Shown here in pieces: positions 1 to 6,330 of a stretch of 6,330 nucleotides of DNA (positions are counted from its first letter, which is position 1; each line of letters opens with the position of its first letter). The stretch is taken from the IMG/VR virus record IMGVR_UViG_2734482547_000007; one strand, 5' to 3'. The position numbers and the translations under genes were made by a program. The notes beneath the pieces were generated by a model that was not told where the DNA came from, did no database searches, and was given only the letters and a program-made list of their open reading frames with translations. Origin of the DNA: a virus. Taxonomy: Duplodnaviria; Heunggongvirae; Uroviricota; Caudoviricetes.

Positions 1-72
1 GGGAAAAATATCATCAGATGGCTGCTTAAAAAAAGAACAAATGGTAGTGTCCGCTATTGCCAGTACACCTCA
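1..72. repeat. Left copy of a 72-bp perfect terminal inverted repeat (partner 6259..6330)
   Basis: Bases 1-72 equal the reverse complement of 6259-6330 when compared base by base; identity stops at position 73. Confidence 0.9.
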
Positions 73-911: not shown

Positions 912-923
912 GGGTGCTTGAGG
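912..923 (+). promoter_or_regulatory. hok mRNA 5' element (tac-like) that can pair with the 3' fbi-like element at 1287..1299
   Basis: GGGUGCUUGAGG (912-923) pairs with CCUCAAUGCACCC (1287-1299) as 12 bp with one bulged U. Nearby, CTATCTG (924-930) pairs with CAGATAG (954-960). Confidence 0.5.
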
Positions 924-960
924 CTATCTGTCTCAGGCATGAACACCAAAAGGCAGATAG

Positions 961-1033
961 AGAAAAGCCCCAGTTAACATTACGCGTCCGGCAAGACGCT
1001 TAACATTAATCTGAGGCTCAATCTATGAACGGC
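961..1033 (-). ncRNA. sok: Candidate sok-like antisense RNA opposing the hok leader and mok start
   Basis: Minus-strand promoter-like hexamers inside the 5' end of the upstream reading frame: -35 TTGCCT (complement of 1063-1068), 17-bp spacer, -10 TAACCT (complement of 1040-1045). A GCGTC/GACGC hairpin (984-999) lies in the predicted transcript. Ends are approximate. Confidence 0.3.
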
Positions 1034-1081
1034 AAATCTAGGTTAGCCTCTTACGTGCCGAAAGGCAAGGAGAAGCAGGCT

Positions 1082-1237
1082 ATGAAGCAGCAAAAGGCGA
1101 TGTTAATCGCCCTGATCGTCATCTGTTTAACCGTCATAGTGACGGCACTGGTAACGAGGAAAGACCTCTGCGAGGTACGAATTCGAACCGGCCAGACGGA
1201 GGTCGCTGTCTTCACAGCTTACGAACCTGAGGAGTAA
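1082..1237 (+). CDS. hokD: Hok-family type I toxin (51 aa, membrane-damaging peptide), HokD/RelF-like
   Basis: Translation MKQQKAMLIALIVICLTVIVTALVTRKDLCEVRIRTGQTEVAVFTAYEPEE matches Hok-family architecture and my recollection of E. coli HokD. AAGGAG 9 nt upstream. An in-frame ATG at 1025 with GAGG SD occupies the position of mok. Confidence 0.85.
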   Translation: MKQQKAMLIALIVICLTVIVTALVTRKDLCEVRIRTGQTEVAVFTAYEPEE

Positions 1238-2873: not shown

Positions 2874-3254
2874 ATGACCGAGCGCATAGAATTTGTTTTA
2901 CCTTACCCGCCGACGGTGAACACTTACTGGCGTCGTCGTGGCAGCACATATTTTGTATCAAAAGCCGGGGAGCGTTATCGCCGGGCAGTGGCGCTTATTG
3001 TTCGCCAGCAGCGGCTGAAATTAAGCCTGTCCGGAAGGTTGGCAATAAAAATTATTGCAGAACCACCGGATAAGCGCCGCCGTGACCTGGACAATATTCT
3101 GAAAGCGCCGCTGGATGCGCTGACGCATGCGGGGTTGCTAATGGACGATGAGCAGTTTGATGAAATCAATATCGTTCGTGCTCAGCCAGTATCTGGTGGA
3201 CGTCTGGGGGTGAAGATTTATCCCATAATGCTTGAAGGGCAGGTCAAAAAATGA
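2874..3254 (+). CDS. rusA: RusA-family Holliday junction resolvase
   Basis: 126 aa; motif PDKRRRDLDN...DALTHAGLLMDDEQ...GGRLGVKI matches the acidic catalytic cluster and overall pattern of E. coli RusA as I recall it; 4-bp overlap with the next gene. Confidence 0.85.
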   Translation: MTERIEFVLPYPPTVNTYWRRRGSTYFVSKAGERYRRAVALIVRQQRLKLSLSGRLAIKIIAEPPDKRRRDLDNILKAPLDALTHAGLLMDDEQFDEINIVRAQPVSGGRLGVKIYPIMLEGQVKK

Positions 3255-4072
3255 AACTGGAAGATTTACCGAAATACTACTCCCCAAAATCCCCCGGCCT
3301 GACTGATGCATCGGCCTCAACGTCGAAAGATGCGCTGAGTATCACTGATGTGATGGCCGCGCAGGGCATGACACAGAATCGGGCTGAGATGGGGGTTTCT
3401 GCGTTCCTTGGGAAAATGGGCATTAGTATGAATGACAGAGAGCGGGCAACAGAATTGCTGACAGAATATGCACTCAGTCGGTGTGATCGCGTGGCGGCGT
3501 TAAGAAAACTCCCGGCAGAAATAAAACCGGCAGTGATGCGTATTATGGCTTCGTATGCGTTTGAAGATTATGCCCGTAGCGCGGCGAGCAAAAAACAGTG
3601 CCCCTGCTGTCACGGAAAAAAATTTATTGAAAGCGAGGTTTTTACAAACAAGATCCAGTATCCGGATGGTAAGCCGCCGGTATGGGCAAAGTGTACGAAA
3701 GGTGTGTATCCGTCTTACTGGGAAGAATGGAAAAAAGTCAGGGAGGTGGTAAAAGTTGCCTGTCCGGAGTGTGGCGGAAAGGGTGAGGTTTCCACCGCCT
3801 GTAAGGATTGCCGTGGGCGTGGTGTCGCCATTCATCGTGAAGAGTCGGTAAAACGTGGTATGCCTGTTATCAGAGACTGCCAGCGTTGTGGTGGTCGTGG
3901 CTATGAAAGACTACCATCAACGGAGGCATTTAATGCTATATGCGAGGTGACAAACCAGATAACACGCGCGTCATGGGAAAAAACAGTTAAGAAATTTTAT
4001 GATGCGCTGGTGACCCGGTTTGATATTGAAGAAGCATGGGCTGAGCGGCAGTTAAAAAAGGTAACTAGGTAA
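3251..4072 (+). CDS. Q: Late-gene antiterminator Q (lambda-Q-like) with an expanded cysteine-rich zinc-binding region
   Basis: Blocks resembling lambda Q: YYSPKSP, TDVMAAQGM, ASYAFEDYARSAA, CQRCGGRGYERLP, SWEKTVKKFYDALV, C-terminal KKVTR. Four CxxCxG(xG) motifs. Followed directly by a lambda-like pR'. Confidence 0.85.
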   Translation: MKLEDLPKYYSPKSPGLTDASASTSKDALSITDVMAAQGMTQNRAEMGVSAFLGKMGISMNDRERATELLTEYALSRCDRVAALRKLPAEIKPAVMRIMASYAFEDYARSAASKKQCPCCHGKKFIESEVFTNKIQYPDGKPPVWAKCTKGVYPSYWEEWKKVREVVKVACPECGGKGEVSTACKDCRGRGVAIHREESVKRGMPVIRDCQRCGGRGYERLPSTEAFNAICEVTNQITRASWEKTVKKFYDALVTRFDIEEAWAERQLKKVTR

Positions 4073-4077
4073 CAAGG

Positions 4078-4117
4078 TTGATTTTTCCGGAATCTGTGGT
4101 AAATTCGTCATAACGAT
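4078..4117 (+). promoter_or_regulatory. Late promoter pR' with extended -10 and sigma-dependent pause element (Q-loading region)
   Basis: -35 TTGATT (4078-4083), 16-bp spacer, TGg-TAAATT (4097-4105), then AACGATGGG (4112-4120) placed 6 nt after the -10, as in lambda pR' as I recall it. Confidence 0.7.
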
Positions 4118-4152
4118 GGGCGTTTTATGCCTGACGTTAGAAGAGTTTCTAC

Positions 4153-4176
4153 AACCCGCCGCCGAGCGGGTTTTTT
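4153..4176 (+). terminator. tR'-like rho-independent terminator
   Basis: Stem AACCCGC/GCGGGTT with loop CGCCGA, then TTTTTT; about 65 nt downstream of the pR' start. Confidence 0.7.
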
Positions 4177-4296
4177 ATGACTGAAATCGCGTCAGTACAG
4201 TAAACGCGCTGGTGGCGGTGAATACCTGTCTTTCAGCTTGCTGGCTTTTTCGACAAGAGTTATTGGTGTGTCACGTTAACCGGAAAAGGAAAAGAC

Positions 4297-4494
4297 ATGC
4301 TAAAACAGCAGGATATGACAGAAACCGCCAGAGTGGTGTTTAATGAATTAAGCGTTACCGAACCGGCGACAGTCGGGGAGATAGCGCAGAATACTTACCT
4401 TTCACGCGAACGCTGCCAGTTAATACTGACCCAGCTGGTTATGGCGGGTCTGGCAGACTATCAGTTCGGTTGTTACAGACGCCTTCCGCAGTGA
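4297..4494 (+). CDS. Small putative winged-helix/HTH DNA-binding protein (65 aa)
   Basis: ORF with AAGGA SD 8-9 nt upstream; segment TVGEIAQNTYLSRERCQLILTQLVMAGL looks like a helix-turn-helix. No family assigned. Confidence 0.5.
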   Translation: MLKQQDMTETARVVFNELSVTEPATVGEIAQNTYLSRERCQLILTQLVMAGLADYQFGCYRRLPQ

Positions 4495-4508
4495 AGGCTT
4501 TTTTATTT
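4481..4508 (+). terminator. Rho-independent terminator overlapping the stop of the 4297..4494 ORF
   Basis: Stem GCCTTC/GAAGGC with loop CGCAGT, followed by TTTTTTATTT. Confidence 0.7.
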
Positions 4509-4521
4509 GTGGTAAATGGGC

Positions 4522-4552
4522 GGCTGGTGGGTGTTAGGGGCACCCACCAGCC
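4522..4552. repeat. Perfect 12-bp inverted repeat (hairpin GGCTGGTGGGTG / CACCCACCAGCC, 7-nt loop)
   Basis: Verified base by base; no T-tract follows, so it is not a canonical terminator. Confidence 0.8.
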
Positions 4553-4593
4553 ATCTGCTCATGCGTTGGGTTCACAAGCAAACCTCAGGCCCA

Positions 4594-4612
4594 CTGCTTT
4601 GCGCAAAAGCAG
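4594..4612. promoter_or_regulatory. Near-palindromic site CTGCTTTGCGCAAAAGCAG upstream of the methyltransferase (candidate operator)
   Basis: Near-perfect dyad symmetry about 35 bp upstream of the methyltransferase start; function is inferred only from position. Confidence 0.25.
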
Positions 4613-4644
4613 AATGAGCCTATCAGAGACAGGCTTAATGATCC

Positions 4645-5703
4645 ATGCTTAATACTGTAAAAATATCCAGTTGTGAGTTAATCAACGCCGACTGCCTGGA
4701 ATTTATCCGGTCGTTACCCGAAAATTCTGTTGACCTGATAGTCACGGACCCGCCGTACTTTAAAGTGAAGCCTGAGGGCTGGGATAACCAGTGGAAGGGC
4801 GACGATGATTACCTGAAGTGGCTGGACCAGTGTCTGGCGCAGTTCTGGCGGGTGCTGAAACCTGCCGGAAGTCTTTACCTGTTCTGTGGTCATCGCCTGG
4901 CATCTGATATCGAAATCATGATGCGTGAACGCTTCAGTGTGCTGAACCATATTATCTGGGCGAAGCCGTCCGGACGCTGGAACGGATGCAACAAGGAAAG
5001 CCTGCGGGCGTATTTCCCCGCCACAGAGCGCATTCTGTTCGCGGAACATTATCAGGGGCCGTATCGTCCGAAAGATGCCGGGTATGCGGCGAAGGGCAGT
5101 GCACTGAAACAGCATGTGATGGCCCCGCTGATTTCTTACTTTCGTGATGCGCGAGCTGCCCTGGGGATAACGGCAAAACAGATTGCAGATGCCACAGGAA
5201 AGAAAAACATGGTGTCGCACTGGTTCAGTGCCGGTCAGTGGCAGTTGCCGAATGAAAGCGATTATCTGAAATTACAGGCGCTGTTTGCCCGGGTGGCAGA
5301 AGAGAAGCATCGGCGTGGTGAACTGGAAAAGCTCCACCACCAGCTGGTGGATACGTATACCTCACTGAACCGGCAGTATGCGGAGCTGCTGAGTGAATAT
5401 AAACATCTGCGGCGGTATTTTGGCGTGACGGTGCAGGTGCCGTATACCGATGTGTGGACGCATAAACCGGTGCAGTTCTATCCCGGGAAACATCCGTGCG
5501 AAAAACCGGCAGAAATGCTGCAGCAGATAATCAGCGCTAGCAGTCGTCCGGGTGACCTGATTGCAGATTTTTTCATGGGGTTGGGTTCGACAGTGAAAGC
5601 GGCACTGGCGCTCGGGCGTCGTGCAATTGGCGTTGAGCTGGAGACTGAACGTTTTGAGCAGACGGTTCGGGAAGTACAGGATTTAGTCAGCCAGAACGGA
5701 TGA
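4645..5703 (+). CDS. DNA methyltransferase (N6-adenine or N4-cytosine, DPPY motif N-terminal, FxGxG motif C-terminal), apparently orphan
   Basis: 352 aa; DLIVTDPPYF near the N-terminus and DLIADFFMGLGST near the C-terminus. No restriction endonuclease partner is visible in the window. Confidence 0.85.
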   Translation: MLNTVKISSCELINADCLEFIRSLPENSVDLIVTDPPYFKVKPEGWDNQWKGDDDYLKWLDQCLAQFWRVLKPAGSLYLFCGHRLASDIEIMMRERFSVLNHIIWAKPSGRWNGCNKESLRAYFPATERILFAEHYQGPYRPKDAGYAAKGSALKQHVMAPLISYFRDARAALGITAKQIADATGKKNMVSHWFSAGQWQLPNESDYLKLQALFARVAEEKHRRGELEKLHHQLVDTYTSLNRQYAELLSEYKHLRRYFGVTVQVPYTDVWTHKPVQFYPGKHPCEKPAEMLQQIISASSRPGDLIADFFMGLGSTVKAALALGRRAIGVELETERFEQTVREVQDLVSQNG

Positions 5704-5743: not shown

Positions 5744-5819
5744 GGCCCTTTAGCTCAGTGGTGAGAGCGAGCGACTCATAATCGCCAGGTCGCTGGTTCA
5801 AATCCAGCAAGGGCCACCA
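5744..5819 (+). tRNA. tRNA with CAU anticodon, most similar to tRNA-Ile2 (lysidine type; ileX/ileZ-like); tRNA-Met not excluded
   Basis: Cloverleaf checked by hand: acceptor GGCCCTT/AAGGGCC, D-arm GCTC...GAGC, anticodon loop CUCAUAA, T-arm GCTGG-TTCAAAT-CCAGC, encoded CCA. Near-identical in layout to E. coli ileX as I recall it. Confidence 0.8.
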
Positions 5820-5862: not shown

Positions 5863-5926
5863 NNNNNNNNNNNNNNNNNNNNNNNNNNNNNNNNNNNNNN
5901 NNNNNNNNNNNNNNNNNNNNNNNNNN
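5863..5926. other. Run of 64 N (assembly gap or masked sequence) inside the tRNA array
   Basis: Seen directly in the sequence. Confidence 0.99.
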
Positions 5927-6258
5927 GAATCCCCCTGTGCGGAGGGGCAATCAGCGAGTAGGTATATGGGATAATCGCGGATTCAGGTGCTGGTACTGAA
6001 TTCACCGGGAGGCACCCGGCATCATGCAATGGCACATAGCGCCACTCTCCAGCCCTCTCCGGAGGGGCTTTTCTGTGCCGGATACATCACAGTTTCTGGA
6101 ACCTTAGGTACTACAGTATCAGTCAGGGTGCTATATTTTCAGATGTGATGAAAGCCTGTCAGCAGGCAGGGCGTATCGGAAATGACCCAGTAGAGAAAAC
6201 GTTGACTCAGATACCGGTGCTGAGTTACCGGGAAACCGGCATCACATGACCGCTATCC

Positions 6259-6330
6259 TGAGGTGTACTGGCAATAGCGGACACTACCATTTGTTCTTTT
6301 TTTAAGCAGCCATCTGATGATATTTTTCCC
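6259..6330. repeat. Right copy of the 72-bp terminal inverted repeat (partner 1..72)
   Basis: Reverse complement of 6259-6330 equals bases 1-72. Confidence 0.9.

What the first reader, a model, noticed from the sequence alone, without database searches (positions are those of the whole stretch)
4181..4508. Small winged-helix-like ORF in the cargo slot, bracketed by two intrinsic terminators
Just after tR' lies a 65-aa ORF with a good SD and an HTH-like core, ending inside a second strong terminator. In lambdoid phages the position between tR' and the lysis genes is a hotspot for cargo such as toxins, tRNAs or anti-defence genes, here expressed from the Q-antiterminated late transcript. A small DNA-binding protein here could regulate the adjacent methyltransferase or act as an anti-defence factor.
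Basis: inference. Interest (0 to 1): 0.5.

Follow-up and report, generated by a model that had tools for sequence, protein, structure and literature searches.

The report
Small winged-helix gene before phage methyltransferase
The 65-codon reading frame is a real, strongly conserved prophage gene for a tiny winged-helix protein of unknown function. It usually sits just upstream of a promiscuous DNA adenine methyltransferase, and a previously undescribed conserved folded RNA lies between the two genes.

Summary
ORF 4297-4494 (65 aa) has an AAGGA ribosome-binding site 6 nt upstream. It lies between two terminator-like hairpins, tR' (4153-4178) and T2 (4481-4504), and its stop codon is in the T2 loop.

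Homologues down to about 40% identity sit between Q antiterminators of at least three Pfam families and an M.EcoGII-type adenine methyltransferase. The link is not obligatory in either direction.

The leader shows covariation and matches no Rfam family.

Function is not shown. My best guess is a late-expressed binding accessory or regulator of the methyltransferase cassette. The ORF itself is an ordinary uncharacterised phage gene. The leader RNA is the more novel item.

The parts
4073..4152 (+). Q-proximal intergenic region, presumed to hold pR' and the Q-loading region. It belongs to the Q module, not to the ORF module.
   Evidence: Window 4073-4178 is 97-98% identical in mEp460-type phages that carry the same Q but different downstream cargo. 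The Q protein is homologous to lambda Q (7ubm, E 3.5e-41). No consensus promoter was called by the scan, so the promoter position is inferred only.
4153..4178 (+). tR'-type intrinsic terminator and left boundary of the ORF65 module.
   Evidence: 7-bp GC-rich stem plus U6, -11.2 kcal/mol. Matches in phages with other Q genes start exactly here. A terminator precedes the ORF in all 63 non-redundant upstream regions.
4199..4225 (+). Optional upstream block containing a Chi site (GCTGGTGG, 4208-4215).
   Evidence: Present in part of the homologous loci only. Chi position.
4237..4274 (+). Conserved non-coding block CTTGCTG-N-CA(A/G)AGTTAY..TGTGTCAC, specific to ORF65. It has promoter-like geometry: TTGCTG 4238-4243, a 17-nt spacer, TATTGG 4261-4266. 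Candidate weak promoter or operator.
   Evidence: Kept in every ORF65 locus, including homologues of 35-45% identity. Absent where the ORF is absent. It does not reach the promoter scan's threshold, so its function is inferred.
4286..4290 (+). Shine-Dalgarno sequence AAGGA of ORF65.
   Evidence: Read. A purine-rich SD is conserved in the alignment.
4297..4494 (+). ORF65: gene for a 65-aa stand-alone winged-helix protein (phrog_331).
4481..4504 (+). T2: hairpin plus U6 overlapping the last codons and the stop codon of ORF65. It is a terminator in E. coli copies and a conserved hairpin with a weaker U-tract elsewhere.
   Evidence: The arms covary (CCUUC/GAAGG, CCUCC/GGAGG, CUGCC/GGCGG). A hairpin always precedes the leader, even when ORF65 is replaced or missing.
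4512..4644 (+). Conserved structured RNA leader of the methyltransferase. P1 4517-4521/4589-4593; P2 4522-4533/4541-4552 (carries Chi at 4523-4530); P3 4556-4563/4573-4580; P4 4594-4600/4606-4612; P5 4615-4620/4632-4637. It ends at the AUG, with no SD.
   Evidence: More conserved than the flanking genes. RNAalifold and manual structure. CM R1 hits 43 of 43 loci. 97.5% of cells are paired against 31-43% when slid; 37 double-change cells against 9.0 +/- 3.4 in shuffles. Further compensations in L024, L151 and L155. No Rfam family. The 33-aa ORF inside it is not conserved.
4645..5703 (+). beta-class N6-adenine DNA methyltransferase of the M.EcoGII type. It is the usual downstream partner of ORF65.
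   Evidence: PF01555, E 7.9e-42. 95% identical to the phage 1720a-02 MTase, which PMC5778455 names as a close M.EcoGII homologue.
5744..5819 (+). tRNA (anticodon CAT; annotated tRNA-Ile/ileZ in related records). It is the next cargo of the same late-region slot.

Best explanation
**Shown**
- ORF65 is a genuine gene under strong purifying selection for a 63-69-aa stand-alone winged-helix protein.
- It is the first gene after the tR' terminator of lambdoid prophages.
- It travels as a unit with its own conserved upstream block and a 3' hairpin that engulfs its stop codon.
- In most cases this unit is followed by a structured RNA leader and an M.EcoGII-type promiscuous adenine methyltransferase.

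**Inferred**
- In the lysogen, transcripts from pR' stop at tR'. T2 and the SD-less structured leader add further locks on the methyltransferase, which is toxic.
- After induction, Q-modified RNA polymerase reads through both hairpins. ORF65 is then made first, followed by the methyltransferase.
- The protein most likely acts by binding, either to nucleic acid or to the methyltransferase itself. I read it as a non-essential accessory or regulator that tunes when, or on what, the methyltransferase acts. I do not read it as a classical dimeric repressor of the dyads.

**Confidence**
- Gene, fold and module are near-certain.
- The functional link to the methyltransferase is likely.
- The molecular mechanism is a guess.
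For: **Gene reality**
- dN/dS 0.075 and wide conservation.

**Fold**
- AF2 pLDDT 92.6.
- Foldseek top hits are all winged-helix domains.

**Position**
- The Q/tR' module boundary lies at 4153.

**Linkage to the methyltransferase**
- 20 of 20 loci from different species have the MTase about 150 nt downstream.
- Homologues of 35-47% identity lie between Q genes of Pfam families PF03589, PF06530 and PF06323 and an orthologous MTase of 58-65% identity.
- phiP27 has the pair behind a further, short Q-like gene plus a nuclease.
- In L021-L023 and L152 the pair is kept although the RNA leader is absent.
- An outlier (L027) lies next to a Dam-family MTase instead.

**Helix 3**
- The CQLILTQL motif and the ORF-specific upstream block are the best-conserved protein and DNA features at 35-45% identity.

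**Methyltransferase biology**
- M.EcoGII is silent in lysogens and deleterious when expressed (PMC5778455).
Against: **The link is not obligatory**
- 5 of 142 leader copies have the MTase without ORF65. In these, another gene, or tR' directly, precedes the leader.
- E. coli genomes hold about 4243 ORF65 places against about 3554 MTase places.
- In some prophages the MTase is replaced by an AraC-type gene while ORF65 stays intact.
- M.EcoGII cloned alone is active (PMC5778455), so ORF65 is not a required subunit.

**Against nucleic-acid binding**
- The protein is acidic to neutral (median pI 5.1).
- It has no dimerisation element.
- No dyad operator is evident in its upstream block.

**Limits of the evidence**
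- There is no sequence-level membership in any characterised wHTH family.
- No expression or binding data were found in the literature searched.
Confidence: 0.4

Rival explanations
1. ORF65 is a protein partner of the methyltransferase. It would confer substrate or sequence selectivity, or act as a stoichiometric inhibitor. Under this reading, the "non-specific" activity of M.EcoGII cloned alone is that of an incomplete enzyme.
For: - Deep synteny with the MTase, independent of the RNA leader.
- An acidic small winged helix fits protein binding. MotA-NTD, RPA32C and O-methyltransferase dimerisation winged helices are among the structural neighbours.
- There is a precedent. Stx phage PA8 encodes a small wHTH protein, PNB-2, directly upstream of an MT-A70 methyltransferase. 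PNB-2 co-purifies 1:1 with that enzyme and redirects it to 16S rRNA (PMC10810198).
Against: - PNB-2 is not homologous (BLASTP E 0.14; hhalign probability 2.7%).
- The MTase is a different family.
- The genes are separated by a hairpin and about 150 nt rather than being translationally coupled.
- The MTase occurs without ORF65 and ORF65 without the MTase.
- No natural fusions were found.
Confidence: 0.2
2. ORF65 is an independent moron with its own weak promoter, gene and terminator. It would be expressed from the prophage and act on host or phage targets unrelated to the methyltransferase, for example as a transcription factor, an RNA-polymerase-directed factor or an anti-defence factor. Adjacency to the MTase would then be only co-inheritance in the same cargo slot.
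For: - The conserved ORF-specific upstream block has -35/17-nt/-10 geometry and a 3' terminator.
- ORF65 outnumbers the MTase in E. coli.
- It is retained intact next to other cargo.
- It always occupies the tR'-proximal position whatever the Q family.
- Moron architecture at this site is documented (PMC4104026).
Against: - The hexamers are poor (about 6-7 of 12) and the scan calls no promoter.
- Pairing with orthologous MTases persists at 35-45% identity while both flanks change. That is hard to explain by hitch-hiking alone.
- There is no hit in the defence library PADLOC. PHROGs gives no functional label.
Confidence: 0.25
3. The ORF's main role is in cis. Its translation up to the stop codon in the T2 loop would melt the hairpin and couple translation to read-through into the leader and methyltransferase. 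The protein product would matter little.
For: - The stop codon lies in or next to the hairpin in nearly all homologues.
- A hairpin always precedes the leader.
Against: - Strong purifying selection acts on the whole protein (dN/dS 0.075), with a well-folded domain and conserved surface motif. A pure leader peptide would not show this.
- Q-modified polymerase should ignore the hairpin anyway.
Confidence: 0.08
4. The ORF is not a functional gene, only a chance ORF or decaying remnant.
For: It is short. Some copies are frameshifted or truncated in cryptic prophages.
Against: dN/dS 0.075, conservation across genera, a confident fold and a conserved SD.
Confidence: 0.02

Closest known systems
phrog_331 / RefSeq "TrmB family transcriptional regulator" (e.g. 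phiP27 L23 = P27p23, WP_000917767.1)
   Same: Same protein family (phrog_331, E 1.4e-37). The phiP27 product is 100% identical. Same position before the MTase, the tRNAs and stx2e.
   Different: No member has a tested function. The TrmB name is not backed by Pfam's threshold (18 bits against 25.6). True TrmB regulators are larger, sugar-sensing dimers.
PNB-2 / M.EcoPA8orf6770P of Stx phage PA8 (PMC10810198)
   Same: A small winged-HTH protein is encoded immediately upstream of a phage methyltransferase. A terminator lies just upstream of the small gene. The partner changes the enzyme's substrate choice.
   Different: No sequence homology. PNB-2 is 143 aa against 65 aa. The enzyme is MT-A70, not beta-class N6_N4. 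It lies in the early/left-end region, not the late operon. The genes abut, without a leader RNA.
Controller (C) proteins of restriction-modification systems
   Same: A small DNA-binding protein is encoded just upstream of a methylation-related gene and times its expression.
   Different: C proteins are Xre-type HTH dimers that bind a C-box dyad and control an endonuclease. Here the fold is a winged helix, there is no endonuclease and no dyad in the ORF's upstream block. The nearby dyads are RNA helices.
Minimal stand-alone winged helices (Z-alpha domains; Lrs14-like, BlaI-like and ArsR wHTH cores)
   Different: The Z-alpha signature residues (Asn and Tyr in helix 3, Trp in the wing) are absent, by inspection. 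ArsR, MarR and BlaI have extra helices for dimerisation that ORF65 lacks.
Late-operon morons downstream of pR'/tR' in lambdoid phages (stx, tRNAs, sRNAs; PMC4104026)
   Same: Same insertion site, bracketed by terminators, with modular exchange between phages.
   Different: This cargo is a regulator-like protein tied to a methyltransferase rather than a toxin or sRNA. Its own promoter is unproven.

Membership tests
Winged-helix (wHTH) fold class | H1-b1-H2-H3-b2-b3 topology with a b-hairpin wing | tested here: met
Pfam TrmB (PF01978), the name used in RefSeq | Score at or above the curated gathering threshold | tested here: not met
   18.0 bits against a cut-off of 25.6. MarR_2, HTH_24, DprA_WH and Rrf2 are also below threshold. 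No NCBIfam model is passed.
Pfam TrmB (PF01978), the name used in RefSeq | Additional effector or dimerisation domain after the wHTH | tested here: not met
   The protein ends 3 residues after the wing.
PapI/FaeA | Sequence match to the FaeA/PapI family model | tested here: not met
R-M controller (C) proteins | Xre-type HTH fold, C-box dyad upstream, linked endonuclease | tested here: not met
   Winged-helix fold. No endonuclease in any of the loci. No dyad in the conserved upstream block.
Z-alpha (Z-DNA/Z-RNA binding) domains | Conserved Asn and Tyr in helix 3 and Trp in the wing | tested here: not met
   Helix 3 is RERCQLILTQLVM and the wing is DYQFGCYRRL. The similarity is structural only.
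PNB-2-type methyltransferase specificity subunit | Homology to PNB-2 | tested here: not met
   BLASTP E 0.14; hhalign probability 2.7%.
PNB-2-type methyltransferase specificity subunit | Physical complex with the adjacent methyltransferase | not testable with these tools
   No multimer prediction or interface output is available. It needs a pull-down or AlphaFold-Multimer.
Moron (promoter-gene-terminator unit in a late operon) | Terminator immediately after the gene | tested here: met
   T2 4481-4504, -8.9 kcal/mol plus U6. The U-tract is weaker in other genera.
Moron (promoter-gene-terminator unit in a late operon) | Own promoter active in the lysogen | tested here: inconclusive
   The conserved block has -35/17/-10 geometry, but the hexamers are weak and the scan calls none. 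There are no expression data.
Type II toxin-antitoxin pair (small DNA-binding antitoxin plus toxic enzyme) | Tightly coupled or overlapping genes in one operon without an intervening terminator | tested here: not met
   150-nt spacer with a hairpin/terminator and a structured leader.
PHROG phrog_331 | Significant match to the family profile | tested here: met
   E 1.4e-37, residues 1-64 on profile positions 35-98. The family has no assigned function.

The most novel reading that the evidence does not exclude
ORF65, hairpin T2 and the structured leader would together form a multi-layer safety and targeting device for a toxic promiscuous methyltransferase.

- The winged-helix protein would bind the methyltransferase, or m6A-modified or leader nucleic acid. 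It would set what the enzyme methylates or when. On this view, the textbook "non-specific" M.EcoGII is an enzyme stripped of its natural partner.
- The leader would be a new class of cis-regulatory (ligand- or protein-sensing) RNA.
Probability: 0.12. Interest if true: 0.75.

Novelty: new member of a known kind. Interest (0 to 1): 0.42.

Why it matters
- M.EcoGII-type enzymes are among the most common prophage methyltransferases in E. coli: at least 2021 of 5426 complete genomes carry one. They are also widely used as non-specific m6A tools.
- They are silent in lysogens and toxic when expressed. How they are kept off and then deployed is unknown.
- This locus offers two concrete, testable control elements: a conserved small winged-helix protein and a conserved structured leader RNA.
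- In Stx phages such as phiP27, the module lies on the same late transcript as the tRNAs and stx. Anything that alters read-through here could therefore also affect toxin expression.
- If the protein turns out to modulate methyltransferase specificity, it would parallel the PNB-2 case and change how the enzyme's "non-specificity" is interpreted.

Tried and rejected
1. **Alignment A2 as query for genome contigs.** A1 was used instead.
2. **Sequence search of PDB with the family profile.** Only sub-threshold hits to winged-helix domains of O-methyltransferases.
3. **NCBIfam and PADLOC.** Nothing informative for the ORF.
4. **Domain fusions as a functional hint.** The only long hits (P0180, P0186) are unrelated LRR or unannotated proteins.
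5. **Longer 94-106-aa gene models.** Rejected, because the N-terminal extensions come from different frames in different strains.
6. **M7 as the true start.** Rejected, because AGGA lies only 1 nt before it and codons 2-6 evolve as codons.
7. **The 33-aa ORF 4516-4617 inside the leader, including a Trp-Trp \"leader peptide\" idea.** Rejected. It stops after 7 codons in most genera, has no SD, and the region shows nucleotide-level rather than codon-level conservation.
8. **The leader as a DNA operator for ORF65.** Rejected. It has G-U pairs, asymmetric helices and covariation, and it persists without the ORF.
9. **RNA structure or a sigma-54/sigma-32 promoter in the ORF's upstream block.** No consistent helix register or motif was found by inspection.
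10. **Literature searches** for the accession, for phiP27 L23, for sRNAs at this site and for the leader sequence returned nothing on this ORF or leader.
11. **A fused-sequence AF2 run** was not attempted. The tool would refuse foreign sequences and reports no interface metrics.

Full report
**Context.** The window is the late-regulatory region of an E. coli lambdoid prophage.
- It holds a hok/sok locus (Rfam sok at 912-1087), a DUF968 gene (1815-2873), rusA (2874-3254) and a lambda-Q-type antiterminator (3251-4072). Q matches PF03589 and is homologous to lambda Q structures 7ubm and 4mo1.
- The region under study follows. After it come a beta-class N6_N4 DNA methyltransferase (4645-5703) and a tRNA with anticodon CAT (5744-5819).
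- In a near-identical chromosome (E. coli TOE17, 99.7% over 4073-4644) the order is Q, hypothetical protein, DNA methyltransferase, tRNA-Ile, tRNA-Arg, tRNA-Arg, then lysis genes. The prophage lies next to ompW.
- In Stx2e phage phiP27 the same ORF (L23) and methyltransferase (L24) precede ileZ, argO and stx2e.

**The observation.**
- ORF 4297-4494 (65 aa) is present, with AAGGA 6 nt upstream.
- The terminator-like sites at 4153-4172 and 4481-4498, each followed by a U-run, are called by the scan. It finds 4 sites in 3900-4800 against 1.1 expected.
- They fold at -11.2 and -8.9 kcal/mol.
- The stop codon sits at the loop/3'-arm junction of the second hairpin.

**It is a real gene.**
- The protein search found 334 clusters at 90% identity.
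- Members from Escherichia, Salmonella, Klebsiella, Citrobacter, Buttiauxella and others are 81-98% identical, with 31 invariant positions.
- A scan of one genome per species found it in 18 loci from at least 10 genera.
- Pairwise dN/dS is 0.075 at a median dS of 0.34, as low as for the methyltransferase at 0.089.
- It is present at 4243 places in 2269 of 5426 complete E. coli genomes.
- An exhaustive profile search of 1.8 billion representatives found only 83 clusters at 50% identity, many of them fragments. The family is therefore narrow and essentially enterobacterial and phage-borne.
- Database gene models of 94-106 aa are over-extended starts.

**Fold and family.**
- AlphaFold2 with the family alignment gives pLDDT 92.6 and the order helix, short strand, helix, helix, beta-hairpin.
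- At sequence level nothing passes a curated threshold. TrmB scores 18 bits against 25.6, and MarR_2, DprA_WH, HTH_24 and Rrf2 score lower. NCBIfam and PDB give nothing significant.
- PHROGs places it in phrog_331, function unknown.
- The RefSeq label "TrmB family transcriptional regulator" is therefore a fold-level hint, not a family assignment.
- The best-conserved stretch in distant members is helix 3 (CQLILTQL).
- The protein is acidic to neutral (median pI 5.1 in close members, 6.1 in distant ones) and has no extra helices for dimerisation.

**Module structure.**
- Phages with the same Q but other cargo (mEp460 type) share only window 4073-4178.
- Phages with other Q genes match from 4153 onward.
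- The first terminator is therefore the joint between the Q/pR'/tR' module and the ORF65 module.
- Every one of 63 non-redundant upstream regions starts with such a terminator.
- Between terminator and ORF lies a block, CTTGCTG-N-CAGAGTTAY..TGTGTCAC (window 4237-4274). It is kept even with homologues of 35-45% identity and is absent when the ORF is absent.
- Its geometry resembles a weak sigma-70 promoter: TTGCTG, a 17-nt spacer, TAYNTG, then CA about 7 nt later. The hexamers are poor and the scan calls nothing.

**Linkage to the methyltransferase.**
- In 20 of 20 first loci the methyltransferase starts about 150 nt after the ORF.
- Four distant homologues (35-42% identical in alignment A2) lie between a Q of family PF03589, PF06530 or PF06323 and an orthologous methyltransferase 58-65% identical to the window's.
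- Both flanks change: Q type upstream, and tRNAs/stx or different holins downstream. The pair is the conserved unit.
- The methyltransferase is 95% identical to that of phage 1720a-02. Murray et al. name that enzyme as a close relative of M.EcoGII, the non-specific adenine methyltransferase that is not expressed in lysogens and is deleterious when expressed (PMC5778455).
- The linkage is not absolute.
  - Five of 142 copies of the downstream leader have the methyltransferase without ORF65. In these it is replaced by a 220-aa membrane protein or by opposite-strand genes, or tR' directly abuts the leader.
  - Four copies have ORF65 followed by an AraC-type gene instead.
  - E. coli genomes hold about 700 more ORF65 places than methyltransferase places.
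- M.EcoGII alone is active (PMC5778455). ORF65 is therefore an accessory at most.

**What lies between the two genes.**
- Aligning 19 loci from different genera showed that window 4512-4644 is more conserved at nucleotide level than either gene.
- It is not coding. The internal 33-aa ORF stops after 7 codons in most genera.
- RNAalifold and manual inspection give five helices. P1 closes a junction holding P2 and P3, and is followed by hairpins P4 and P5. P5 ends 8 nt before the methyltransferase AUG, which has no Shine-Dalgarno sequence.
- P3 shows CG, UA and AU at one pair and UA/CG at another.
- G-U pairs, for example in 38 of 43 sequences at one P5 pair, fix the strand as +.
- With a covariance model built from 12 sequences, all 43 loci searched matched.
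- On that alignment 97.5% of cells are paired against 31-43% when partners are slid. Seven pairs carry double changes. 37 double-change cells compare with 9.0 +/- 3.4 in shuffles (0 of 500).
- Distant copies add compensations:
  - L024 P2 GGCUGGCUAGUG / CACUGGCCAGCC
  - L151 GGCUGAUGGAUG / CAUCCAUCAGCC
  - L155 P3 UCGUCCGU / ACGGGCGA, which closes the internal mismatches
- No Rfam family matches in either the E. coli or the Kluyvera-type copy.
- **Caveats.**
  - The alignment was fitted to the model.
  - Loci L030-L149 were selected by an 18-mer inside P1/P2, so the invariance of that 18-mer in those loci is by construction.
  - The protein-derived loci L005-L020, L024, L151 and L155 are the unbiased set.
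- The leader is absent in L021-L023 and L152, where ORF65 and the methyltransferase remain adjacent. It is present where ORF65 is missing. ORF65 and the leader are therefore independent companions of the methyltransferase.

**Mechanism.** What is shown is the anatomy: tR', ORF65 with its own upstream block, a hairpin over its stop codon, an SD-less structured leader, then a toxic promiscuous methyltransferase. From established lambda biology I infer two things.
- Without Q, transcripts stop at tR'. T2 and the leader then give additional insulation.
- With Q, the polymerase reads through and ORF65 is made just before the methyltransferase.

My preferred reading is that ORF65 is a late-expressed binding protein that tunes the methyltransferase cassette (confidence 0.4).

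The rivals are:
- a direct protein partner that sets specificity or inhibits the enzyme, with the non-homologous PNB-2/MT-A70 pair of phage PA8 as precedent (PMC10810198)
- an autonomous moron acting elsewhere
- a mainly cis role of its translation in melting T2
- a non-gene, which is effectively excluded

**Novelty.**
- The ORF is a common, annotated but uncharacterised member of the winged-helix class. That makes it a new member of a known kind, of modest interest on its own.
- The leader RNA is the more unusual item and deserves its own follow-up.
- The Chi cluster is striking but already described for lambdoid phages (PMC3784561, PMC12315714).

Noticed in passing
window 4512-4644 (CM hit 4512-4656): A ~130-nt + strand structured RNA leader lies immediately upstream of the M.EcoGII-type methyltransferase. 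It is more conserved than the flanking genes and has five helices with covariation and many G-U pairs. The AUG has no SD, and GATC lies just before it. No Rfam family matches. It is a candidate new cis-regulatory RNA. An alternative pairing, AUGGGC with GCUCAU, competes with P1 and P3 and suggests a switch.
   Followed up: yes
window 837, 1982, 2040, 4208, 4523, 5343 (+); 2446, 2498, 4544, 5337 (-): There are ten Chi sites (GCTGGTGG) in 6.3 kb against 0.24 expected. Related loci carry about 1 per kb, with 141 of 180 on the late-operon strand. One Chi is the 5' arm of leader helix P2. Recombinant break-points of loci that keep ORF65 but lose the MTase lie right after it. Chi enrichment in lambdoid phages is already published (PMC3784561, PMC12315714).
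   Followed up: partly
window 1-72 and 6259-6330: The two ends of the window are a perfect 72-nt inverted repeat. No complete E. coli genome continues the sequence past about 6260. The last 72 nt look like an assembly or chimeric artefact rather than biology.
   Followed up: partly
window 4237-4274: A non-coding block, CTTGCTG-N-CAGAGTTAY..TGTGTCAC, is conserved with ORF65 down to 35-45% protein identity and is absent when the ORF is absent. It has promoter-like spacing but weak hexamers. Its function is unknown; it could be a promoter or an operator.
   Followed up: partly
window 912-1237: A hok/sok-type toxin-antisense locus: Rfam sok scores 112 bits at 912-1087, and a 70-aa ORF at 1025-1237 has a hydrophobic Hok-like core. 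A weak isrK-like hit follows at 1246-1327.
   Followed up: no
window 5864-5926 and 5898-6080: A run of N masks the position where related prophages carry two tRNA-Arg genes after tRNA-Ile. An STnc100 sRNA match (69.8 bits) follows.
   Followed up: no
window 3251-4072: The Q antiterminator is lambda-Q-like at both ends (7ubm, 4mo1). It carries a central insertion with a DnaJ-type CXXCXGXG zinc-finger motif.
   Followed up: no
L107 3631-4293; L080 23-232: In a few phages ORF65 is replaced by an unrelated 220-aa protein with an N-terminal hydrophobic segment. This gene also ends just before a hairpin and the same leader RNA.
   Followed up: no
L027 337-1848: A distant ORF65 homologue (47% identity over 53 aa) lies downstream of a Dam-family (MethyltransfD12) methyltransferase and a 76-aa ORF. 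An IS3-family element is inserted just after it. This is a second, independent association with an adenine methyltransferase.
   Followed up: no
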